Under the pieces are notes generated by a model. It saw only the letters and a list, made by a program, of their open reading frames with translations. It was not told the origin of the DNA and made no database searches. A DNA stretch of 63,972 nucleotides, counting the filler, from Collodictyon triciliatum (Eukaryota), in assembly GCA_043381765.1 (NCBI GenBank). It is 24 parts of 23 records of this genome, joined end to end, with 100 filler letters (N's around TTAATTAATTAA, not from the genome) between each part and the next. Parts side by side here need not be neighbours in the genome. Positions count along the whole stretch, not along the records: positions 40,167 to 42,771 come from JBHJMP010008595.1; 23 more parts are not named here. One strand, written 5' to 3'. How positions within the stretch are numbered: the stretch's first letter is position 1; the number at the start of each line of letters is the position of its first letter. This document shows, in pieces, positions 5,428-61,682 of this stretch. Both the position numbers and the translations under genes were made by a program.

Positions 5428-5697
5428 GAAGAAGCTAGAAAAGCTGAAGAAGCTAGAAAAGCTGAAGAAGCTAGAAAAGCTGAAGAAGCTAGAAAAGCTG
5501 AAGAAGCTAGAAAAGCTGAAGAAGCTAGAAAAGCTGAAGAAGCTAGAAAAGCTGAAGAAGCTAGAAAAGCTGAAGAAGCTAGAAAAGCTGAAGAAGCTAG
5601 AAAAGCTGAAGAAGCTAGAAAAGCTGAAGAAGCTAGAAGAGCTGAAGAAGCTAAAAAAGCTGAAGAAGCTAAAAAGGCTGAAGAAGCTAAAAGAGCA
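5428..5697 (+). repeat. Coding 18-bp tandem repeat (GAAGAAGCTAGAAAAGCT)x~15 = EEARKA
   Basis: 11 perfect units, then EEARRA, EEAKKA, EEAKKA, EEAKRA; truncated by the contig start. Confidence 0.95.
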
Positions 5698-6854
5698 GAA
5701 TCATCGAGTATGTTAATAGACTTACCTCACATGCAGTTGCCTACTGTTTCCTCAGGGATACAACTCACAATAATCCCACCTTAGCACCACCCAGCCGCTT
5801 GGCCCTCGGCAAATACGCCGATCTCCTGACAACGGACTTTGAGAGACCAGAGAATGTCCTGGGCAGCGGCGGATTCGGGCTGGTCCTCAAGGTGCAGCTG
5901 AAGGCAGGCCTCTTTGCGGTCAAGAAGATCAGCGACGCGTCCCTCCGTGCCGCTAGCAGCGGCACAGACCCCGAGAAGGAGGGCAACATAATGCTCGAGC
6001 TGCGACACCCAAACATCTTGATGCTCCACGACTTTGGGTTCCGCGGCAGGGACCTCCTCCTCGTGATGGAGTTTGCAGACGGCGGAGAGCTCTGCTCACT
6101 GATCAAGAAGCAAGGGCCACTCAGCCTCGACCTGACCCTCAAGTACGGGCAGCACATCATCCAGGGCCTCGTCTACCTGCACACGCGCCCAAGGCCCATC
6201 CAGCACCGCGACATCAAGACCGAGAACGTCCTGCTTGTGAACGGCATCGCCAAGCTGACGGACTTCGGCCTTGCAAAGAGCGGCGTCTCAGTCAACTCGG
6301 TCAGCAAGTTCGGCGGCTCGATGAAATGGTCCCCACCCGAGGTTTTTGACACCGCTAAGGGTGTTGGGCTGCCCAGCGATGTCTACTCGTACGGCGTGGT
6401 GCTCTGGTCCATGGCGAGTGGTGAGTATCCGTACGAAGGTATGACAAACGCCGAGGTCAGCACAAAAGTCTTGAGCGGTAAACTGCTTCCTCTTCCCACA
6501 ACCTGTCCTTCTAACCTTGCAGCCCTTATCCACAAATGCTGGGAGAAGGACTACGACATTCGCGTCACTGCTCAACAGGTCGAGGCCGGGCTCAAGGGCA
6601 TCATGTCAAACCCCGTTGCTGTCCCGGTCGCGAGGCCGGGCTCCGTTAGGAAAATGGATACCGAAGAGTTGGTGGTCTACTTGAAGGACAATAAGGCCAA
6701 CCCGAAGCTGGTTCAACTTTGCCAGGAAACCCCGCTCACTGGTGCTGAGTTTGTCCTGCTGGCAGAGGAGGACTTGAAGGAGCTTGTACCAGACCTGAAA
6801 AACGTCCAGATACGGGCAGCCCTGAAGCTCATCGAGGAGGCCAGCCGCACCTAA
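5428..6854 (+). CDS. TKL/MAP3K-like Ser/Thr kinase with N-terminal (EEARKA)n repeat and C-terminal SAM-like domain; 5' partial
   Basis: GSGGFG, AVKK, HRDIKTENVLL, DFG, WSPPE and SDVYSYG motifs. The tail (MDTEELVVYLK...LTGAEFVLLAEEDLKEL) is SAM-like. A GTATGT...TTAG intron at 5708-5784 joins the repeat exon in frame. Confidence 0.92.
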
Positions 6855-7768: not shown

Positions 7769-8006
7769 TCGTGCGATATCTCCCACAGCATATCCAACCC
7801 CCGCTATCCACGAAACCAATCAACCAGTTTGGACGCCCGCCTGACCAACTCGCTGTCACTGACTTCTTTCCAGTGCTACCCTCTCCATGGTAGTCTTCTC
7901 CTACTCGCGTTTGCTCTCTCTCTCTCATGGGCTCCCATCCCGCCCCTTTGTATGGCATAACCTCGCTACACTTTGAATCGAATAAAGGAAAAAAAAAAAA
8001 AAAAAA
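7769..8006 (+). mobile_element. 5'-truncated L1-like non-LTR retrotransposon, family A (ORF2 C-terminus, 3'UTR, polyA)
   Basis: Close match to 40237-40455 and 53680-53906; encodes VRYLPQHIQP...QLAVTDFFPVLPSPW*; ends AATAAAGG(A)18. Confidence 0.85.
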
Positions 8007-10853: not shown

Positions 10854-11119
10854 GTGGCGTGCGTCAGTGTCTCAGTGTACTCGCCCACAAGGCGCACCAC
10901 GCAGCCGGCCGGGTAGAGTCCCTTCTCCTGCAGTCCCGCTGCTCGCTCCACCCGTCGCGTCCGTTAGTGTTCGTAGACCACATTCTCGTCGTCAAGTTGA
11001 GGCACCTCAGTCTTGTGCGCTTCGCTTGCGCTCACCGCACTTGAGCTCGGCTTGGTTGCCGTACGTGTGGTTTTTGTGCAAAACCAAAGGGAAACGTGGT
11101 TTTTGTGCAAAACCAAAGG
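10854..11119 (+). mobile_element. GC-rich dispersed repeat family B (probable 3' end of a retroelement), terminal ~25 nt duplicated
   Basis: Near-identical to the reverse complement of 61458-61682; ends GTGGTTTTTGTGCAAAACCAAAGG(GAAA) twice in tandem. Confidence 0.8.
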
Positions 11120-12059: not shown

Positions 12060-13466
12060 AAGCACTAGCCATGGCATAGCATTAAAAATATCTTGTATAG
12101 ATTACAAATTGTATGCTGTTTTATTTGTTTCGTAATGCAATAATCTTGCTCGATAACCTGAATTATCACTTTACAAATAATATTTCATAGATGTAAGATA
12201 GTCTTGCACTGTTGGTATTCTTTATCGTTCGCATGCCTACGAAAGTAATCAAATTTATTTCATAACTATAAAGAGTTGCTGACAGTAATGGCAATATCCT
12301 GTTCAAATTGATTTTTTACGAGAATTTCTTAATTTTTGATTGTATTTGATTAATTTTTGTCATTAGAAAGTACATCGATATGTTGATTGTAACATGTTTC
12401 ATATTTATGGTATTCAAGTCCGAATGGGTATTAAAAAGGTAAATCAGATTATACATCTACAAAATACTCGATACGAAGAAACCAAGCTATCCATACAGTA
12501 AGCACTCTCCAAAAAGTCATATAAGTTGGATGCCTATTAAAAATTTTCATGTGACTGTGTCTATACATATTGAAAACAATACTTAGTTATTAAGCTATTC
12601 GTCATCATAAACATCAACATCTGTATTAATCAAGATAAAACTTAATAAAATCCTTCAAAACTAGCTTGTATATACATATGTGCCTGCAGGTAAAAACGGT
12701 TTCTACGGGTTTACTTTCTCGGCATAACACTGTAGAAAAACACGAAATGACTTCGCGCATTAAAATACAACAGTAGAAAAAAGGGCGGATAATAGCGTCA
12801 AACAAATATGAGCCCTATGAAAAAAAAAAACAAGAGAATAGAAGAAATACATGTGATTAGCAAAGAAACGAAGCATATCAGACGTGTTTTTGGGAGTGCA
12901 AAGCAAAGTCAGAGTCAAATATTCTTATTTTTTGCTTTATTGTTATTTGCCCAGTCTCTGTACACACAAATATTTATGATACAAAAAAGTACAAAGTATA
13001 AAATATTTATGGTATGTGTTTCCAGAAGCTTTAGATTTATGGATATAATATAACTGTGTTCAATCCGTCTTGATGGAGCACACGACTGAATGGACGCCAC
13101 TGAATGCTACCTATCACTGGACATATACCATAAGACATAATGTTGTTTTGGATATACACCACTAGACGAGATGGCATAACATACGACCCATGCTCGTTCT
13201 CTCTTTTTTCACGTGCCGCAGTCAATAGAAAACAAAATATTATATGGTCGATATCATACAGAGTGAATCATTCGCTTTTTTATTGTCTTAATTATGGTTT
13301 GCATTTATTTTGTTTCGGCAGTGTTTTTGGCTGCGTTATGCCATCTCATTAATAGGGAGCTATGGATAGGCACACGCGCGGCAAAAGCTGGCAAAGTCTC
13401 CCAACAATGCACACTTTGCAGCAACGGTGATGAATCCATTGAGCACACATATGCGCAATGTCCTTT
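12060..13466 (+). pseudogene. Decayed L1/Tx1-clade ORF2 (RT to zf-RVT)
   Basis: Colinear degraded motifs WHSI..SCIDYKLYAVLF (WRPISLLNxDYK), VQIDFLREF (LDFEKAF) and VFLGV (YLG), then an intact zf-RVT INRELWIGTRAAKAGKVSQQCTLCSNGDESIEHTYAQCP. Many stops and frameshifts. Confidence 0.75.
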
Positions 13467-13727: not shown

Positions 13728-15432
13728 TCTGGTATACGAGCTGATCCGCCATTCCGAGAACTCAGACAACAACATCATCGATCGCTTCGCCGCTCTTTCG
13801 AAGCAACTTAATCTCATTGAAGCAGGCCTAATCGACTATGTATATTTTATAAATCCACATGTTTTTTTGTTTCATATATATTAATATGCAATCAAATAAT
13901 CCAATAAATTATCATAAAATAACCAAGAAAGAAAAATACAATGCTTTTTAATCGATGAAATGCATCCAATCATAAAGATACAAGTTACAGACAGCAGGTG
14001 GATGCTGCCATTCAGATACTTTAAGTGGCATCCTAAAACAAAGCCTCACGCCCGATCCTGACTCACAAACATAACAAAACTCAACTAGAAATCAAGAAAC
14101 TTCGTGCGCGACCAGAAGTCACTGTCCACTGCCGAGACCAACACGCAGGTTCTCAAAAGAGCACTTCAGGTCCTCCCGCTAATACGACGCCGCCTCCAAG
14201 GGAAAAACACCTCTTTCATCAGCTCTTTCCTGATCGTGTACGAAAAGACCCTCACCACCGAACTTCAACCAGTCCAAGAACACCGCCGCAAAGTGTTTTT
14301 GAAGCTGCCCACCCAAGTGAGTGTCCCGACACCATCGGCTGACGGCTCCTTGGACTTGTCGCAGTATGCATTCCACTCATGGGTCCTGTTCCACAGCGTT
14401 TATCCCCGCGATTTGGAAACTCTGTTGCTGTCAAAGTCCATCAGCCATCTGGACACTGGGCACAAGAGTCTGCGCTTTCCTTGGGGGATTGCTGTGCATC
14501 CGCTCACTGGCAACATCTACGTGGCCGAAGAGGACCGAGACCGACTTGTTGTCCTAAGTCCCGGCCTAGCTTTGCTGGACTTTGTCGGCTCTTCGCTGGA
14601 AAACTCTCAGGGGCAAGGTGAGGAGGACAGTGGTGGCAGCAGTAGCAGCAGTGACAACGACAGCGACAGCGAGCGGCTGCCAAGCAATGATGAAAGCGAT
14701 GAAAGCCATGAAAGCGAGCAAGAGAAGGCACTTGCCAAGGCCGACCGAGCACAGAAAGCTGAGGCCAAGAAAGCAAGAAAGGCCGCAAACGAGATTGGAA
14801 AGCGACCAAAGCTGCATGGCCCGCGCGGTGTGGCTGTGTCCTATGATGGGCGCGTGGCCGTGGTGGAATATGGGCGGCATGACGTGCTTCTCTTGAATGA
14901 GGATCTGCGCGTGATCCGCCGAATCGGATCCAACGGTAGCTCAGTCGGCCTGTTTTCCAGTCCTTATCACGCCTGCTTCGACTCATCCGGTTTCCTCTAC
15001 GTGGCAGACTCTGGGAATCGGCGTGTGCAAAAGTTTGACCAAGCAGGTAATTATCAATGCCACTTTGGCGGCAGCGGCGAAGGACCCAGTATGTTTGGCT
15101 CGAGTGTGAATGGCGTTGTTGTTGACGAGGGCGGGTATGTGTATGTCTTGGCTGCTGGGGCGTCGATGATTCGGGTCTTTGCTCCAGAAGGCAGTCTCCA
15201 TCTTGAGATTCCGATTGAGCGCATTGGATCCGGTGGTTGGGCTAACCTGAATCCCGGTCCACATGACACCTTGGTGGTCTCAGACACAAACAACAGTGCA
15301 ATCAAGTTTTATGATAGGCAAGGGAAAATAGTCCGCCAGATTGAGTTGGACAGTGCCATGGGCGCGGCTTTTGGCTTGGATGGACGGTTCTATGCCACGA
15401 GTGTGAATAACCACACAATCAACATATACTGA
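13728..15432 (+). CDS. NHL-repeat (beta-propeller) protein; 5' end uncertain, large terminal exon 14089-15432
   Basis: NHL motifs FPWGIAVHPLTGNIYVAE, GPRGVAVSYDGRVAVVE and FSSPYHACFDSSGFLYVADSGNRRVQKFD. An upstream exon-like segment LVYELIRHSENSDNNIIDRFAALSKQLNLIE resembles the paralogue at ~50600. Confidence 0.9.
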
Positions 15433-16857: not shown

Positions 16858-17974
16858 TTATTGTGATTTTTTGGTTTGTTGAGGATGCTCTTCCCCATCG
16901 CAAGCTGTCCCCAAGAGAACATCCCAGATGCTCGGCCCAAGAGCAGCCCCATAATTAACTGTCTTTAGCGTGTGGTGAAGATGGTGGTGATAACCTCCGA
17001 CAAGACATCGCGGAGAGCGAAAGCCATGACCAAGATGACCGTTGATCGGAAACACGGACAGCCCGATTTTTAGAAGATAGTAGTTGACAATATGGATGGG
17101 ATGAACAAGATATACTAGCTGTGAGCTAAAGTATATCAAAGCTTCCACAGGATGAAAGGACAGACCAGAATAAGGATTTACGATGCCAGATTTATGATGG
17201 ACAATATGAATCTTTTGGAAGAGCCAGCGCGTATGCAAGAGTCTGTGGGTGAAGTAAAAGTGCGAATCAGCCCAAAGAATAGCCAACAGCAGAAGCTGCA
17301 AAAGGGATTCCACCTTGTATTCACCGGTGTCCATGTACCCGGAAACTATGCAAATGAAAAAGAAAATATATAAATGGATCATTTTTACTCGCCCTGTTTA
17401 TGATTTTATTCTATTCTTAACCTTTTTAAATATATGAAACCAACAGCTATATCATGATGCAATATTGCTCTGTATAAATATTATTCGTCAACAAAAGTAT
17501 GCTGGTATTTATAGCAAATGAAGAACAACATTTCGTGCCAAATTAATATGAAAAACATATACTGTGACTCGTTCGGGACCGCCAGAAAAGAAACCCATAA
17601 AGGTATGCAGTGTCAATCAGAGCCGACGACCCACACGTTCGACGCATCTCTTGGAGGATTTGGGAGCGTGAAGGGAAAGTGTTGGGCTGGTATTTCCAGG
17701 CTCGAGTCGCCCAAAAAGGTGCAAATGGGCCAAATAGAATGAATGTAGGGATTCCGAAGATTGCGGCGTAAAGCACCTGGTGTGCAAGGAATAAGTATAG
17801 GAATGGAAGAATATATTCGTACAAAACCCATGGAAGAAGCTGCTCTGTAACCGCTGATATGAATCTTGCGTCTGAAGAAAGGACGCTGAAGACAGACGAT
17901 GGTGGCGGTGCAAAATCAAAATGGGATTCCAAAGCATGAATCCAGTTGAAGTCGCTGAGAAGAACACTTTCCAT
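16858..17974 (-). CDS. Sterol desaturase / fatty-acid hydroxylase superfamily protein (2 exons)
   Basis: His boxes HRLLH, HIVHH and HHHLHH; PYSGLSFHPVE; NYG...WDVLLGT; one phase-1 GT-AG intron at ~17347-17562. Confidence 0.92.
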
Positions 17975-25217: not shown

Positions 25218-27191
25218 TCTGTGATTCACTATCTCTAGCGGCTGTGGGAAATAAATACTAAAGTAATTTTGAGTGGTTTAGCTTTCTTTTCGTATGCTTG
25301 ATACTATAGACTTTTTTTTTTAATGTCAGTTTGGTCTTCAATTAACTTTTTATTGAAGATATTCGCAACATTTAGAAAAAATAATGTATTGGATAGTTTG
25401 CTATACTGTTGACTGTGGTTGCAGCCTCGGAAAAAATTCAGAAAGATAAATGCATTATTCGTCACTTTTTTGTTCGGTCTCCTCCATTCCAGGATGAAAT
25501 AAGTGGGTCTTTGTCATGTTAATCCTGAATGGAGATCGCCTTGTCGTTTTTGTTGACTTTTTTTTTTTCAGCGTAACATCATAACTGTGTGCTGAGAGAT
25601 TCGGTGTCGCAGACTCCTTTCTGAAATTCACTGGGAGTGCAGAAGCACGCAGACTTTATTTGTCGTATAGATTCTGTTTGTTCTTGATTTCTTGATTTCT
25701 TGATTTCCTTGTGTCAGAGCCAAGGCGAATGACTGTCCACCCTCGGAGTTGTGGTGATGGTTACTTGTGGTTGTTCCATTAATGTATAATTGACATTCTG
25801 CTAATGATCTGTTCTATTTGAAAAGTCTTCATTCCGCTTTATATATAATTTCATTCGCTTTTTATCTTTTCTGTTTTCTTTTTCTTTTTCATTTTTCTTT
25901 TCTTTCTTTCATTTTCATTTTCTCGTTTTTCTATTTTTTCTTTTCTTCTCTTTTTTTTCTTCTTATCTTTTCTTTTCTCCTTTTCTATTTTTCTTTTTTT
26001 CTTTTTTTCTTTTTTTCTTTTTATTTCTTTTTATTTCTTTTTATTTCTTTTTATTTCTTTTTATTTCTTTTTATTTCTTTTTATTTCTTTTTATTTCTTT
26101 TTATTTCTTTTTATTNNNNNNNNNNNNNNNNNNNNNNNNNNNNNNNNNNNNNNNNNNNNNNNNNNNNNNNNNNNNNNNNNNNNNNNNNNNNNNNNNNNNN
26201 NNNNNNNNNNNNNNNNNNNNNNNNNNNNNNNNNNNNNNNNNNNNNNNNNNNNNNNNNNNNNNNNNNNNNNNNNNNNNNNNNNNNNNNNNNNNNNNNNNNN
26301 NNNNNNNNNNNNNNNNNNNNNNNNNNNNNNNNNNNNNNNNNNNNNNNNNNNNNNNNNNNNNNNNNNNNNNNNNNNNNNNNNNNNNNNNNNNNNNNNNNNN
26401 NNNNNNNNNNNNNNNNNNNNNNNNNNNNNNNNNNNNNNNNNNNNNNNNNNNNNNNNNNNNNNNNNNNNNNNNNNNNNNNNNNNNNNNNNNNNNNNNNNNN
26501 NNNNNNNNNNNNNNNNNNNNNNNNNNNNNNNNNNNNNNNNNNNNNNNNNNNNNNNNNNNNNNNNNNNNNNNNNNNNNNNNNNNNNNNNNNNNNNNNNNNN
26601 NNNNNNNNNNNNNNNNNNNNNNNNNNNNNNNNNNNNNNNNNNNNNNNNNNNNNNNNNNNNNNNNNNNNNNNNNNNNNNNNNNNNNNNNNNNNNNNNNNNN
26701 NNNNNNNNNNNNNNNNNNNNNNNNNNNNNNNNNNNNNNNNNNNNNNNNNNNNNNNNNNNNNNNNNNNNNNNNNNNNNNNNNNNNNNNNNNNNNNNNNNNN
26801 NNNNNNNNNNNNNNNNNNNNNNNNNNNNNNNNNNNNNNNNNNNNNNNNNNNNNNNNNNNNNNNNNNNNNNNNNNNNNNNNNNNNNNNNNNNNNNNNNNNN
26901 NNNNNNCTTTTCTTTTCTTTTCTTTTCTTTTCTTTTCTTTTCTTTTCTTTTCTTTTCTTTTCTTTTCTTTTTTTTCTTTTCTTATTTCTTTTTTCTTTTT
27001 TTTCTTTTTTTTCTTTTTTTTCTTTTTTTTCTTTTCTTTTAAAATACCTTCTTTTCATTTTGAGAGGTTTGCTGTCTGGAGATAATCTGCTGGCTTCCGC
27101 TGATACTTTGGATAACTAGACACGGAGAAATTATTAGTATTATTATTTTGTTATTAACTTCACAAAGCAATAGCAAATTTGACCAAAAAAA

Positions 27192-39830: not shown

Positions 39831-40166
39831 AATATTAGACTCGAGGAATAAGAAAAAGAAAAGGAGAAAGAAAAGAGAAAGAAAAAGAGAAAGAAAAAGA
39901 GAAAGAAAAAGAGAAAGAAAAAGAGAAAGAAAAAGAGAAAGAAAAAGAGAAAGAAAAAGAGAAAAAAAGAGAAAAAAAGAGAGAAAAGGAGAGAAAAGGA
40001 GAGAAAAAGAAAAAGAGAGAAAAGAAAAAAAGAAAAGAAAAGAAAAAGAAAAAGAAAAGAAAAAGANNNNNNNNNNNNNNNNNNNNNNNNNNNNNNNNNN
40101 NNNNNNNNNNTTAATTAATTAANNNNNNNNNNNNNNNNNNNNNNNNNNNNNNNNNNNNNNNNNNNN

Positions 40167-40455
40167 AACAGTCTGCTGAAACACGCTCGCATTCTTCGCT
40201 ACTCTGACCGCAAGCGAAGAGAGATGTGGGAATGTGTCGTAAGATATCTCCCACAGCATATCCAACCCCTGCTACCCACGCAGCCAATCAACCAGTTGGG
40301 ACGCCCACCTGACCAGCTCGCTATCACTGACTTCTTTCCAGTGCTACCCTCTCCACAGTAGTGTCTTCTCTTAGTCGCGTTTGCTCTCTACCATGCGCAG
40401 CTATCCCGCCCCTTTGTATGGCATAACCTCGCTACACTTTGAATCGAATAAAGGG
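40167..40455 (+). mobile_element. LINE family A 3' end (longest copy; ORF2 tail 40167-40361)
   Basis: Open frame NSLLKHARILRYSDRKRREMWECVVRYLPQHIQPLLPTQPINQLGRPPDQLAITDFFPVLPSPQ*, then a 3'UTR ending GAATCGAATAAAGGG. Confidence 0.85.
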
Positions 40456-45576: not shown

Positions 45577-48179
45577 ACTTATCGCTACCCCGATGCGCTC
45601 TATACATTGGCTCAATCGTATGAAAACGGATGGGTGGTTGAAAAGGATTTGAAAGAGGCCAGTAGATGGTATGTCAGGGTAAAAAAAATTGACGATTTGA
45701 GGCGACTACTTTCTGGGGGCTCTGTAGAAGTATTTGAACTCATGAAGGAGTTATCAGAAGAGAAAGAGGACATCTTAAATTACGGCTCAAAAGTAGGGGA
45801 GAAAATCAAATACCCTGAAGCATTTTCACTTATTGCGTCTTGCTATGAAAACGGATGGGGCGTGGGAAAAAATCTTAAAGAGTCTGTTGAATGGTATCAA
45901 AAAATTGGCGACTTTGATGGGCTAAAGCGGCTGGCATCTGTGGGTAGTGTGGATGCATTCTCAGTATTGGAACAAATGTCGGTGTCCAAGATCGATATAT
46001 TTAAATATGGAGACTGGGGAGATAAAGTGGGGGAGCGCTTTCAATATCCCGAAGCAGTTTCGTCTCTTGCTGAGTGTTATTTGAACGGTTGGGGCACGGA
46101 TAGAGACTCGAAAATGGCTTCTGAATGGTATGGAAAGCTGGAAGACTTTAATCAGCTCAAGGACATGGCTAAAAATGAAATCAAAGAGGCGGTTGATGAG
46201 CTGATAAATCTTGCGAGCTTAAAAATTGACGTTATCAGCAACGGCGGATGGGGAGAGAAGGTTGGTGAAAAGTTCAAATATGCAAGCGCTGTACAGAACT
46301 TGGCAGAGTGTCTGGAGAATGGATGGGGCGTCGAGGTCGATTTAAAGAAGGCAGTTGGTTATTACACAGCCCTATTATCTTTCGATGACCTGAAAAGACT
46401 CGCCGAATTGGGAACGAAGTATGCATTCGATGCTTTACTTGAGCTGGCTATGTCATCGGAAGTTGAGCTCGACCAAAACGGATTGAAAAAGAATGAAATC
46501 TTCAAAAATCCTCAGGCTGTCTCCATAGTAGCTGAATGCTTCGAAAATGGGTGGGGTACTGAGAAGGACCTTGAGAAAGCATTAGAGTTCTACAGAAATT
46601 CTGAAAATTTCGAGAAGCTACAGAATTTTGCGAAACAAGGAATGAGCAGGGCGTTTGAAATGCTCAAAGAGGCTTCGGACGTTAAAGAAGATGAGCTTGA
46701 CTACTATAAGAACAAAGTTGGAGAGAAACCCAAGTACCGTCAAGTTCTACCCTTACTAGCGGAGTGTTACGAAAAAGGTTGGGGAACTACCTTGAATGAA
46801 CAAATAGCATGTGAATTGCATGGAAAAAATGAGAACTTCCAATTGATTCAACGTATGGCCAAGGACGGGTCAATTAATGCCTTTGAAGTTTTGAAGGAAT
46901 ACTCTTTGAAGAAAGGATTACAGCGTGATTCATACACCGGAGGAATATTGGGCGAAACATACTTTTTCTCGTACTTGGTTGATTATGTAGCGAGTTGCTA
47001 CGAGAACGGATGGGGCACAGAAAAGGATGCGGAGCAGGCGAAGTTTTGGACTGATATTGTTCCATTGAGAACATCCTACAACTATTCCAGACTGAAAAAA
47101 TTGGCGCAAGAAGGCTCATTAGTTGCTTTTTCGATGCTGCAAGAGATATCAGAGATTAAATATGATGTTATGCACTACAAAGACAAGATTGGCGAGAAGT
47201 ATAGATACCCTGAAGCTATCTCTGCTGTTGCTGAATGCTTTGAGAATGGATGGAGTGTTAGCAAAGACAAGGAAAATGCCGCTGATATGTTTGTTAAAGC
47301 TGAAAATTGGGAAGGATTGAAAAGATTAGCAAGAGATGGATTTTCGAAAGCATTTGCTCTTCTGGTGAACTTGGCCGAGATGAAGGAAGAAATCCTTAAT
47401 TATAACAGGATCAAAACTGGTGAACAACAAAAGTACCCTGAAGTTGTCAACATTGTCGCTGAGTGCTTTGAAAATGGATGGGGAGTCGAGAAAGATTCGA
47501 AAAAAGCACTCGAATGGCATGGCATAGCTGGGCACTTTGATCTGTTAAAGCAACAGGCCGAGCAAGGTTCAAGTGCTGCCTTTGGTGTCTTGGAAAAAAT
47601 GGCAAGCGTGAAAGAAGATATCGTGGCGAGCAAAGGTCCAATAATCGGAGAGAGCAATAAATATCCAAACGCCGTTGGATACGTTATCGAGTGCTATGAT
47701 AATGGCTGGGGAGTAGAGCAAGACAAGAAGAAAGCAATCGAGTGGCAAGCAAAGGCTGAAAACATTGATATTCTGAAAGATTTAGTGGCAGGAGGCTCGC
47801 AAGATGCTTTTGATGTGTTGAATGACATGGCAAACAAGAGAGAAACTTCTTTCAATAGCTATTATGGTTCCAAGACAGGGGAAAGATATACATACCCTCA
47901 AGCTGCTTCAGTTCTCACTGAGTGTTATGAGAATGGCTGGGGAGTAGAAAAGAATGAGGAAAAGGCATCTTTCTGGGGAACCCTTGTCCCTCTTTATCAA
48001 AGTGAAGACTTCAACGGATTAAAAGAGCACGCAGAAAAAGGCTCTGCTGAGGCATTCAAGTTCATTGTAGAACTGGCTGAGATGAAAGAAGATATACTCG
48101 ATGGCGAGCAGATTGCTGGGGAAAGCTACAAACACCCACAGGCGCACCAAGTTCTGTCGGAGTGCTATGAAAATGGCTG
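45577..48179 (+). CDS. Intronless protein of >=11 tandem ~75-80-aa Sel1-containing repeats; both ends truncated
   Basis: Open frame across the whole contig; unit YPEA..xAECYENGWGVEKD..KA.EW....F..LK.LA..GS..AF..L......K.D....(var)K.GE..K. Confidence 0.93.
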
Positions 48180-49116: not shown

Positions 49117-50710
49117 TTATATCTTGATTAAATCGCTGGGATATGATGAGGCGATGTAAAGACTTCCATCCAGCCCGAAAGAGATGCCCATGGGATGTGT
49201 TATTTGCAGCGACTTTACGATTTTCCCATCGCTTGAAAACATATGAACAGCTCCGTTGTTGTATTCGCTCAAACAGAAGCCTGCGTTTGGGCCTCGGCAA
49301 AGATAATTCCAGTTTGCAAGGGCCTTTTTCGTCAGGAAGCCATCAAGGAGCACCAAAGTTTCTTTGCATATTATGTAAATGGTGTCTCCAGCTCGTGGGA
49401 ATATAAGGAGACGATTCTGCTCATCAACAACAGCAGCATCGGGCAGAACGGGTTTCAAGTTACCAGTTTGCAGGTGTATAAAATCGGGACTAAACTTCAA
49501 TACTTTGTAGACATCCTGGTCAGTTACGTATATAAATCCGGTAAGGTCGACTGCGATGCATGTAGCGTTTGAAAAATGGAATACTTCACCGCTGGCTGTC
49601 AGCAGATGGCCAACAAAGTCCAGTTCCTTGTTTAAGATGACCACACACGACTTCTTTGAACAGGCAACATAGATAAAATCGCCGTTCACAGAGAAGCATA
49701 TTCCGCACGGAGAATTCAAGAAAGGATCTATGTTTCATGTCTCCATTAGTGGTGCTCAAGTAAAAGAAAACACATGCACTAAGATGGCGATGAGAAAAAA
49801 ATGGACGATGCATGAATAATATAATCAGTTCCTTTTTTTTTCTTTTCACTTTTACAAAGATAACCTGTTTCTCTGCGCCTGGAATACGATTTCTTATATT
49901 CTAACGAGCTTGAGTACATCGATACCAAGCCAGTTTGTCGCTCCGCTACATATACATCACCACTGATTGGGTGGACTGCCAGTCCATACGGAACTGAGGG
50001 TCTTCTCGTCGCCAATAAAGTCGTAGCGGAGGGATATTCCAACGAGGATATTGCTCTATCTATTGGATGGAAATTGGAGCAAAGTGTGTCTCTGTATCTT
50101 TGGAGGCCGTAAGCCGCGCATATTTCGCGGGGGATTCGACCCAAACTCCATAGCGGCCACGCGGTAAAATGTGTAGTGTTACCCGGCAAGTTTATCTCAA
50201 AAAAAGTCATTGTTGTGTGGCAGCGACGGATGTTGCGCATGCTGCATTTTTTGGCATGAAGGAGAGAGGCGCATCGGACGAGCGGAGCTACTTCAGACTC
50301 TGACGCAATTATGGGTTTCTTTATCTTATTTTCCTGTTCACGCGTCTGTGGGTGGCGAAAGTGTAAGAATTGACAGAAGGCGAATATCGATGCATATTAA
50401 ATATGTGAGAAATCCAAGAGAAAAAAAAAGCTAAGAAAAAAAAAGCAAAGAAAAAAAAAAGGAATAGAAAGGATATATATCTTTCTTGAATCCCAAGCTC
50501 TATCTTTTAATAAAGAAAAAAAAATACTCAAAATAAACTACGGAAGAAGCAGAAATATACTTTGTGTTCTTCGAATCAAAAGAAGGGGTTTACCCAGCCA
50601 AGCATCATTTTTTCTATTGTGCCAAGGAAGTTGCGGAAGGTTTCAAAGTGTGCGATGATGTCCATATCAATCAACTCCGTTTGTTCCTCAACCTTGTGCG
50701 AGAGTCATTC
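49117..50710 (-). CDS. Divergent NHL-repeat protein, paralogue of 13728-15432
   Basis: PYGLAVHPISGDVYVAE, SPCGICFSVNGDFIYVA, CIAVDLTGFIYVTD and HPMGISFGLDGSLYIA; introns at ~49728-49864 and upstream. Confidence 0.85.
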
Positions 50711-53679: not shown

Positions 53680-53906
53680 GTCGTGCGATATTTCCCACAG
53701 CATATCCAACCCCTGCTACCCACGCAGCCAATCAACCAGTTGGGTCGCCCACCTGACCAACTCGCTATCACTGACTTCTTTCCGGTGCTAGCCTCTCCAC
53801 GGTAGTGTCTTCTCCTACTCGCGTTTGCTCTCTCCCATGCGCACCAATCTTGCCCCTTTGTATTGCATAACCTCGCTGCACTTTGAATCGAATATAGATG
53901 AAAAAA
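53680..53906 (+). mobile_element. LINE family A 3' end, third copy
   Basis: VVRYFPQHIQPLLPTQPINQLGRPPDQLAITDFFPVLASPR*, with the same 3'UTR. Confidence 0.85.
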
Positions 53907-60954: not shown

Positions 60955-61457
60955 TTAATTTATTTGATCCACGAAGCCGAAGTCAAAGCCAATGTAATTT
61001 GCTAATAAACCCATCTTACTGGGCCATTCTTTGCCATTTTTTATTTTGTTTATTTTTCTTTGCGTGTGGAGATGAAGCTCCTGTCTCCAAGGTGCCAGCC
61101 TTCTTTTGCACTAGCGCTACTTGTTGGCCGGGTGGCGGAGAAGTAGTCGGTAATCAGGAATTGCATCCTGCGGTTTGGCCTGTAACCTGGGTCTTGTGCT
61201 TCCATGAGAGAGACAAGGCGAAGTTTAATATATTTATCACCCTCTTTCCACATGTCTCTTCTCACGGGGTCTGGGTAGTAGAGAACGTGCAGGTGGCGAA
61301 GGAAACTGTTGAGGAAAGAGATTTGTATGATGTCATTCAGCCTATTATCAGGAATGGGTGGCTGGTTGTTGAGTCTTGCATTGCGTGAGTATATGCGCGC
61401 TATCCACATAGTCCATAGCAAATGGCCTCGCGTCACTGCCCAGAATGTTTATGCATC
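60955..61457 (-). mobile_element. 3' end of second L1-like family (family C): ORF2 C-terminus and 3'UTR
   Basis: FWAVTRGHLLWTMWIAR...RN is the post-zinc-knuckle W..W..RN motif of L1/Tx1 ORF2. NSFLRHLHVLYYPDPVRRDMW...QFLITDYF aligns with family A. Ends GGATCAAATAAA. Confidence 0.75.
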
Positions 61458-61682
61458 TTCCCCTTTGGTTTTGCACAAAAACCACACGAATAGCAACCAA
61501 GCCTCAACTTTGACGACGAGAATGTGGTCTACGAGCATACCAGACGCGACCGGTGGAGCGAGCAGCGGGACTGCAGGAGAAGGGACTCTACCCGGCCGGC
61601 TGCGTGGTGCGCCTTGTGGGCGAGTACACTGAGACACTGACACACACCACACGCCCGCGCTTGTTGGAGCAGCTGTGCGAAG
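61458..61682 (-). mobile_element. Repeat family B, second copy (48-bp internal deletion)
   Basis: Matches 10854-11094; the deletion lies between GGC microhomologies. Confidence 0.8.

What the first reader, a model, noticed from the sequence alone, without database searches (positions are those of the whole stretch)
40314..40337. Two diverged L1-like families keep a C-terminal TD-type PCNA-binding PIP box in ORF2; one is a full PIP degron
Seen: family A ORF2 ends ...QLAITDFF (40314-40337; QLAVTDFF and QLAITDFF in the 7.8-kb and 53.7-kb copies). Family C has QFLITDYFSATR (61128-61163, minus). The two families share little else here (NSLLKHARILRYSDRKRREMW vs NSFLRHLHVLYYPDPVRRDMW, then an unalignable linker), yet both keep Q-x-x-hydrophobic-T-D-aromatic-aromatic. 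Known: this is the canonical PIP box, with the TD of high-affinity PIP boxes (p21 QTSMTDFY, Cdt1 QRRVTDFF). A basic residue at +4 defines the CRL4-Cdt2 degron; family C has R at +4 and family A has P. The known human L1 ORF2p PIP box is internal, between EN and RT. Inference: this retrotransposon lineage tethers ORF2p to PCNA through a C-terminal tail, with some subfamilies self-limiting by replication- or repair-coupled degradation. I am not aware of this arrangement being described.
Basis: partly seen in the sequence, partly recalled or inferred. Interest (0 to 1): 0.85.

Follow-up and report, generated by a model that had tools for sequence, protein, structure and literature searches.

The report
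PCNA-docking tail on LINE retrotransposon protein
Several diverged L1-like jumping genes of an unidentified freshwater eukaryote all end their main protein in a short conserved tag that matches the strong form of the peptide used to grip the DNA sliding clamp PCNA, a position not described for this kind of element, though binding is untested.

Summary
Q-x-x-[IV]-T-D-[FY]-F occurs 4 times in the six-frame translation (three family A copies, one family C copy). About 0.02 hits are expected, and 0 of 200 resampled windows had 2 or more.

The window is a chain of about 25 short contigs, not contiguous DNA. All copies are 3' ends, either 5'-truncated or cut by a contig edge. No RT is visible in the window.

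Relatives from metagenomes define four subfamilies, about 26-44% identical in the tail. In these relatives the tail follows a zf-RVT domain (PF13966, above Pfam's cut-off) with CX2CX8HX4C spacing. One family A window copy (7769-8006) and L001 end in AATAAA plus an A-rich run.

Across subfamilies the linker has 0 of 28 invariant columns and the motif has 4 of 8. Differences within the motif are synonymous.

My best reading is a selected C-terminal, TD-type PIP box that tethers an L1-like ORF2p to PCNA (about 0.6). Binding was not tested: the complex job was not folded. The RT domain itself was never reached.

The "full PIP degron" claim is weak. A basic +4 residue occurs only in family C, in 3 of 4 copies.

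I classify this as a new variant of a known kind. Human L1 needs PCNA, and pogo transposase has a PIP box.

The parts
40167..40361 (+). Family A copy 1: last 64 codons of the ORF plus stop TAG (40359-40361), cut at its 5' side by the contig start
40314..40337 (+). PIP-type motif QLAITDFF (the finding)
40362..40454 (+). Family A copy 1 3' UTR, with AATAAA at 40447-40452; no A-run follows in this copy
53680..53897 (+). Family A copy 3, cut by the contig start. Motif QLAITDFF at 53758-53781, stop at 53803-53805. 92% identical to copy 1
7769..8006 (+). Family A copy 2, 5'-truncated inside a contig. Motif QLAVTDFF at 7846-7869, stop at 7891-7893, AATAAA at 7981-7986, 18-A run at 7989-8006. No clear target-site duplication
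61050..61448 (-). Family C copy: 132-codon ORF tail plus stop TAA, 5'-truncated at about 61448. Motif QFLITDYF at 61140-61163; Arg at +4 at 61128-61130
13351..13466 (+). Second family C fragment: the CCHC (zf-RVT) region (NRELWIG...CTLC...H...C), cut by the contig end before the tail
   Evidence: (E 5e-21 to the profile of A1)

Best explanation
These are 3' ends of at least two (four with metagenome relatives) diverged subfamilies of an L1-like, poly(A)-type non-LTR retrotransposon. Its ORF2 protein ends, after the CCHC zinc-knuckle (zf-RVT) domain and a variable proline-rich linker, in a conserved canonical TD-type PIP box 5-35 residues from the C-terminus.

Proposed mechanism (inferred, not tested): the flexible tail hooks ORF2p onto PCNA loaded at the primer-template junction made by target-primed reverse transcription, or at replication forks. 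This holds the enzyme on target DNA. The other PCNA subunits remain free to bring RNase H2, polymerase, flap and ligase activities that finish integration.

Shown here: the motif, its conservation, and its position after zf-RVT. Inferred: PCNA binding and its role.
For: - Significance: the strict motif occurs 4 times against 0.02 expected; 0 of 200 resamples had 2 or more.
- Relatives: phmmer over 1.84 billion representatives gave 5 relatives, plus 3 cluster members and locus L001.
- Motif counts: of 13 tails seen (4 window, L001, 8 proteins), 10 carry an intact Q-x-x-[IV]-T-[DN]-[FY]-F. P0001 has a one-residue deletion in the aromatic pair. P0005 and P0007 lose the frame or the contig before or inside it.
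- Conservation: one representative per subfamily gives 0 of 28 invariant columns in the linker, 4 of 8 in the motif (Q, I, T, F) and 0 of 5 after it. Mean pairwise identities are 0.15, 0.65 and 0.18. The only invariant columns of the 10-row alignment A3 are Q50, T54 and F57.
- Protein-level selection: families A and C use different synonymous codons at Q, I, T and the last F. The two best-supported variants inside the motif among contigs of 4 metagenome runs are both synonymous: L001 908 G>A (Q) and 923 T>C (D).
- ORF2 context: zf-RVT PF13966 scores above Pfam's 27.5-bit cut-off in P0003 (36.4), P0007 (34.1), P0006 (31.2) and P0002 (27.8). The spacing CX2CX8HX4C is read. PMC5381506 (passage read) gives this as the form outside mammals.
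- One ORF: L001 has zf-RVT and the QLAITDFF tail separated by one frameshift. All 5 contigs covering that place in 4 runs carry one extra base there, which joins the two open frames.
- LINE habits: 5' truncation, AATAAA plus an A-run, and 3' depth several times the 5' depth in runs X1 and X7.
- Known biology: the TD form is the high-affinity PIP type and is rare among PCNA partners (PMC3973308, passages read). PCNA is needed by human L1 (PMC10830420 and PMC7617806, passages read).
- The tail of P0003 has pLDDT below 50. This is compatible with disorder but is weak evidence.
Against: - No binding evidence of any kind exists.
- No sequence reached an RT or endonuclease domain. 'ORF2' therefore rests on zf-RVT and on the retroposon-like 3' ends.
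- The human precedent cuts both ways. Its canonical-looking PIP box is a helix packed against the RT (PMC10830420), and PCNA was reported to bind elsewhere (PMC7617806). A perfect motif can therefore have another role.
- All relatives come from short metagenome contigs and may belong to one host lineage, so the phylogenetic breadth is unknown.
- Only the best-supported variants were shown (44 more were not), so the synonymous-only statement covers the listed ones only.
- Loose PIP-like strings are common by chance.
Confidence: 0.6

Rival explanations
1. The conserved C-terminal motif is a real, selected short motif, but its partner is not PCNA. It could pack back onto ORF2p (as the human 'PIP' helix packs on the RT), bind ORF1p, or bind another reader of PIP-like motifs.
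For: The human L1 PIP-box helix contacts palm and fingers (PMC10830420, passages). PCNA was placed on the wrist 'PUB' motif instead (PMC7617806, passages). The AF2 model of P0003 draws a short helix over the motif (H234-242), but at pLDDT below 50. No binding test could be run.
Against: The motif meets every position of the canonical PIP consensus plus the T of the TD pair. It sits a few residues from the C-terminus after a variable, proline-rich linker with 0 of 28 invariant columns. That is the usual setting of true PIP boxes (my knowledge) and unlike the buried internal human helix.
Confidence: 0.25
2. One reading: in family C the motif is a full PIP degron (TD plus a basic residue at +4). 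ORF2p would then be destroyed by CRL4-Cdt2 once docked on chromatin-bound PCNA, which would self-limit the element.
For: The window's family C copy reads Q-F-L-I-T-D-Y-F-S-A-T-R. This fits Q/N-x-x-psi-T-D-theta-theta-x-x-x-R/K as defined in PMC3973308 (passage read). Arg at +4 is also in P0006 and P0001, and two Arg precede the Q.
Against: At +4, P0004 (family C) has L, families A and E have P and family D has H. P0006 has TN instead of TD. One basic residue in one of four subfamilies is about what chance gives (my estimate). It is unknown whether the host has Cdt2.
Confidence: 0.08
3. The tails are not retrotransposon ORF2 ends. They would be part of a multi-copy host gene or a domesticated zf-RVT protein, or the motif match would be chance plus shared ancestry without selection.
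For: No RT or endonuclease domain was ever reached. No clear target-site duplication flanks the 7769 copy.
Against: There are five fragments in 64 kb, all 5'-truncated or cut at contig edges. AATAAA plus an A-run is present. The 3' depth is much greater than the 5' depth. zf-RVT scores above cut-off. The linker is saturated with change while 4 of 8 motif columns are invariant and the codons differ synonymously, which neutral drift does not give.
Confidence: 0.05

Closest known systems
Human LINE-1 ORF2p and PCNA (PIP-box helix at residues 404-419; 'PUB' motif in the wrist domain)
   Same: It is an L1-type ORF2 protein with a C-terminal CCHC domain and a poly(A)-type element. PCNA is a required host factor for L1, and a canonical PIP consensus is present in the protein (PMC10830420, PMC7617806 and PMC5381506, passages read).
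   Different: The human motif is internal, between endonuclease and RT, and is a helix packed on the RT. PCNA was reported to bind the wrist instead (PMC7617806). Here the motif is TD-type and sits in a variable tail at the extreme C-terminus, after the CCHC domain. Whether these elements also have the internal motif could not be examined, because no sequence covers that region.
pogo / Tigger / Lemi1 DNA-transposon transposases with a PIP box
   Same: A mobile-element protein carries a PIP box, and pogo transposase was found as a PCNA interactor (review PMC5371812, passages read). That the pogo motif is C-terminal is my recollection and was not checked.
   Different: Those are DDE cut-and-paste transposases with no reverse transcription. 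The role of the motif there is unclear according to the same review.
PIP degrons of CRL4-Cdt2 substrates (Cdt1, p21, Set8)
   Same: They share the TD pair inside the PIP box, described as rare and high-affinity (PMC3973308, passages read). The family C copy also has Arg at +4.
   Different: The basic +4 residue is absent from three of the four subfamilies and from one of the four family C copies. No evidence of degradation exists.
Bacterial IS and Tn7 transposition proteins with beta-clamp-binding motifs
   Same: This is the same general theme: mobile elements repeatedly evolve short clamp-docking peptides (PMC5371812, passages read; PMC4549789, search listing and abstract only).
   Different: The clamp (beta against PCNA), the domain of life and the transposition chemistry all differ.

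Membership tests
Canonical PIP box (Q-x-x-psi-x-x-theta-theta) | Gln at position 1 | tested here: met
   Q is invariant in 10 of 10 rows of A3.
Canonical PIP box (Q-x-x-psi-x-x-theta-theta) | Aliphatic residue at position 4 and two aromatic residues at positions 7 and 8 | tested here: met
   Position 4 is I in 9 rows and V in 1. Position 7 is F or Y and position 8 is F in 10 of 10 rows of A3. P0001, which is not in A3, lacks one aromatic residue.
Canonical PIP box (Q-x-x-psi-x-x-theta-theta) | Lies in a flexible terminal or linker segment | tested here: inconclusive
   The motif is 5-35 residues from the stop. The linker has 0 of 28 invariant columns. The tail has pLDDT below 50, but the whole model is poor (mean 52.9).
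Canonical PIP box (Q-x-x-psi-x-x-theta-theta) | Binds the hydrophobic pocket and Q-pocket of PCNA | not testable with these tools
   The one complex job was not folded, and the host's PCNA is not available.
PIP degron (CRL4-Cdt2) | T-D at positions 5 and 6 | tested here: met
   TD is present in 8 of 10 rows of A3. P0006 and P0002 have TN.
PIP degron (CRL4-Cdt2) | Basic residue at +4 after the box | tested here: not met
   At the finding's own coordinates (family A) +4 is P. Family D has H and family E has P. Family C has R in 3 of 4 copies and L in P0004.
PIP degron (CRL4-Cdt2) | PCNA- and Cdt2-dependent proteolysis | not testable with these tools
   This needs an experiment.
L1-like (poly(A)-type, APE-bearing) non-LTR retrotransposon ORF2 | C-terminal CCHC zinc knuckle (zf-RVT) | tested here: met
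   PF13966 scores above cut-off in P0002, P0003, P0006 and P0007. The spacing is CX2CX8HX4C. A family C fragment lies at 13351-13466.
L1-like (poly(A)-type, APE-bearing) non-LTR retrotransposon ORF2 | Reverse transcriptase domain in the same ORF | tested here: inconclusive
   No available sequence reaches upstream far enough. The longest, P0007, starts about 190 residues before zf-RVT and has no RVT_1 hit. Searches for longer proteins and loci found none.
L1-like (poly(A)-type, APE-bearing) non-LTR retrotransposon ORF2 | APE-type endonuclease at the N-terminus | not tested
   No sequence of that region was obtainable.
L1-like (poly(A)-type, APE-bearing) non-LTR retrotransposon ORF2 | 5'-truncated copies ending in a polyadenylation signal and an A-run, with target-site duplications | tested here: inconclusive
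   Truncation, AATAAA and an 18-A run are met. The 3' depth exceeds the 5' depth. No convincing duplication was found at the one testable copy.

The most novel reading that the evidence does not exclude
A lineage of L1-like elements has solved PCNA recruitment with a canonical, high-affinity (TD-type) PIP box on a flexible C-terminal tail, whereas human L1 uses an unusual wrist-domain surface. PCNA capture would then be a general, convergently re-invented requirement of L1-type target-primed reverse transcription. A p21-strength PIP on a multi-copy element could also compete with host PCNA clients when the element is expressed.
Probability: 0.35. Interest if true: 0.7.

Novelty: new variant of a known kind. 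Interest (0 to 1): 0.55.

Why it matters
How PCNA takes part in LINE integration is currently under revision. The human 'PIP box' is a buried helix, and a different PCNA surface has been proposed (PMC10830420, PMC7617806). A natural lineage with an unambiguous, terminal, TD-type PIP box would give independent comparative evidence that L1-type elements need the sliding clamp. It would also offer a simple system, a short peptide tail that can be deleted or swapped, to test what PCNA does in target-primed reverse transcription. It adds retrotransposons to the list of mobile elements (pogo-type transposons, bacterial IS elements) that repeatedly evolve clamp-docking peptides.

Tried and rejected
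- **Whole-genome search:** no genome is held for this window.
- **Searches for longer proteins or loci that would link the tail to an RT all failed.** Word-index searches for longer proteins with the family C ORF and with P0003 found none. The N-terminal 160 residues of P0007 found only P0009, which reaches no further upstream. The metagenome contig scan gave one 1157-base locus. The viral and prokaryote-genome contig scans gave nothing.
- **PDB sequence searches:** the profile of A2 and the two short tails gave no meaningful hit.
- **AlphaFold2 of P0003 with a 12-row alignment:** mean pLDDT was 52.9. The Foldseek matches were ferritin-like helix bundles with E at or above 0.2, which is meaningless.
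- **ESM Atlas:** the whole of P0007 points to zf-RVT clusters, which agrees with Pfam. Its first 190 residues gave only sub-0.9 leads, including a Prp8 domain, and I did not use them.
- **Complex prediction of the tail with an archaeal PCNA reference:** not folded, so it gave no information on binding.
- **Sequencing runs:** no RNA holder was listed, so nothing can be said about expression.
- **Rfam and tRNA scans of the window:** nothing found.
- **Target-site duplication at the 7769 copy:** only two non-adjacent 6-mers were found.
- **Earlier findings of this scan:** none concern this genome or retrotransposon PIP boxes.
- **Literature:** searches (CC-licensed PMC and bioRxiv only) returned no paper describing a C-terminal PIP box in a non-LTR ORF2.

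Full report
**What the window is.** The 63,972 bases are not one stretch of genome. They are about 25 contigs of roughly 2.6 kb, joined by N44-TTAATTAATTAA-N44 spacers and ordered by falling length, plus one 791-N gap. Neighbourhood across spacers therefore means nothing. The coding content is intron-poor and eukaryotic in style, with many microsatellites. It includes a Sel1-repeat ORF, a protein kinase, NHL-repeat proteins and a fatty-acid hydroxylase. No genome is held for the window, and I did not try to name the organism.

**The observation.**
- Family A: QLAITDFF at 40314-40337, QLAVTDFF at 7846-7869 and QLAITDFF at 53758-53781, all on the plus strand.
- Family C: QFLITDYF-SATR at 61163-61128 on the minus strand.

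The strict TD-type pattern has 4 hits. Markov resamples gave a mean of 0.02, and 0 of 200 had two or more. The loose PIP consensus is at chance (15 against 12.4 +/- 3.6), so a bare Q-x-x-psi-x-x-theta-theta match would mean little.

The ORFs run on past the motif, for 7 residues in family A and 29 in family C. Two family A copies begin at contig starts. The third (7769-8006) is 5'-truncated inside a contig and ends in AATAAA plus 18 A. The family C copy is 5'-truncated at about 61448, next to an unrelated repeat. A profile search of the six-frame translation found one more family C fragment, the CCHC region at 13351-13466, cut by a contig end.

**Are these ORF2 tails?** The window alone cannot say. 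There is no RT, and Pfam finds nothing in the two tail ORFs.
- An exhaustive phmmer search of 1.84 billion representatives with the 132-residue family C ORF found 5 proteins. Their clusters added 3 more. All come from short metagenome contigs.
- These extend upstream into a domain that Pfam calls zf-RVT (PF13966). Scores are 36.4, 34.1, 31.2 and 27.8 bits against a 27.5-bit cut-off.
- The cysteine spacing is CX2CX8HX4C (read). A review of vertebrate L1 gives this as the non-mammalian L1 form (PMC5381506, passage read).
- A metagenome locus, L001, is a family A copy with zf-RVT, then one frameshift, then the tail with QLAITDFF, a stop, a 3' UTR, AATAAA and an A-rich run.
- Contigs from four metagenome runs were laid on L001. 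All 5 contigs that cover the frameshift place carry one extra base, and that base falls in the overlap of the two open frames. The usual form therefore has zf-RVT and the tail in one ORF.
- Depth over the 3' 400 bases is several times that over the 5' part in runs X1 and X7, but not in X3, and X2 is too thinly covered to say. The excess fits 5'-truncated copies, though the tool cautions that summed contig depth is not a copy number.
- The ESM Atlas agrees on zf-RVT.

The RT domain itself was never reached. 'L1-like ORF2' is a strong inference, not a demonstration.

**Is the motif selected?** The tails fall into four subfamilies:
- A: the window copies and L001.
- C: the window copy, P0006, P0001 and P0004.
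- D: P0003, P0008 and P0005.
- E: P0002 and P0007.

They are 26-44% identical to family A over the shared part. With one representative each, the last CTD helix has 6 of 21 invariant columns. The following linker has 0 of 28, the motif 4 of 8 (Q, I, T and the last F; position 6 is D or N and position 7 is F or Y), and the residues after it 0 of 5. In the 10-row alignment the only invariant columns are Q, T and F of the motif.

Of 13 tails, 10 are intact, one has a one-residue deletion (P0001), and two lose frame or contig (P0005, P0007). These are ordinary defects of dead copies.

Conservation is at the protein level. Families A and C encode Q, I, T and F with different synonymous codons. The two listed contig variants inside the motif are both synonymous (only the best-supported variants were listed). 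This excludes a conserved RNA or DNA signal, or recent gene conversion, as the cause.

**What it most likely does.** The sequence meets every position of the canonical PIP box. [quoted passage not shown] It sits near the C-terminus behind a variable, proline-rich linker.

PCNA is an established L1 host factor (PMC10830420 and PMC7617806, passages read). I therefore read it as a PCNA tether for ORF2p during target-primed reverse transcription, with confidence about 0.6.

The main caution is the human case itself. There the canonical-looking internal PIP box is a helix packed against the RT, and PCNA was reported to bind a wrist-domain 'PUB' surface instead (PMC7617806). A different partner or an intramolecular role stays open (about 0.25). 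No binding test was possible, because the one complex job was not folded.

**The degron claim.** The definition is Q/N-x-x-psi-T-D-theta-theta-x-x-x-R/K (PMC3973308). Only family C has a basic +4 residue, in 3 of 4 copies, and one of those (P0006) has TN rather than TD. Families A and E have P and family D has H. This is no more than chance would give across four subfamilies, so I rate it at about 0.08.

**Comparison and novelty.** Clamp-docking peptides on mobile-element proteins are known. Examples are pogo/Tigger/Lemi1 transposases, human L1 ORF2p and bacterial IS transposases (review PMC5371812, passages read).

Five full-text searches found no paper describing a C-terminal PIP box behind the CCHC domain of a non-LTR ORF2. 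The library excludes most subscription journals, and supplements were closed. I class this as a new variant of a known kind.

**Verdict.** The element type is well supported but the link to an RT is not directly shown. PCNA binding is plausible and untested. The degron idea is unsupported.

Noticed in passing
whole window; spacers e.g. 40067-40166; N gap 26116-26906: The window is a pseudomolecule of about 25 short contigs joined by N44-TTAATTAATTAA-N44 and sorted by falling length, with one 791-N gap. Adjacency between pieces is artificial.
   Followed up: yes
45577-48177 (+): An 867-codon frame is open across a whole contig and is made of Sel1 repeats (PF08238, E 6.5e-45). It has a regular period of roughly 60-70 residues ending in ...ECYENGWG....
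   Followed up: partly
5691-6851 (+): An intron-free 387-codon ORF carries a protein kinase domain (PF00069, E 9e-48). It lies in the same contig as the 5'-truncated family A copy at 7769.
   Followed up: partly
14089-15429 (+); 49120-50396 (-): NHL-repeat / six-bladed propeller-like ORFs lie on two different contigs. The first was confirmed by Pfam. The second was judged by eye only.
   Followed up: partly
61458-61650 (-) and 10854-11119 (+): A G+C-richer repeat of unknown kind is shared by two contigs (95% over 150 bases, plus short reiterated units). It directly abuts the 5' truncation point of the family C copy.
   Followed up: no
L001:196-239: A 44-base stretch upstream of the zf-RVT region (coding ...MAMAYSKFFRYK) shows a depth spike. 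Contigs match only this stretch and then diverge on both sides in all four runs, so it appears unusually conserved at the DNA level between subfamilies. It could be a functional RNA or DNA site or a recombination hotspot.
   Followed up: no
39900-40066 and many other contig ends: Long purine-rich or pyrimidine-rich microsatellites (GAAA/GAGAAA-type, CTTT-type, TCTA-type) lie at many contig ends. They probably explain why the assembly breaks there.
   Followed up: no
16861-17397 (-): Fatty-acid hydroxylase domain ORF (PF04116, E 2e-19).
   Followed up: no
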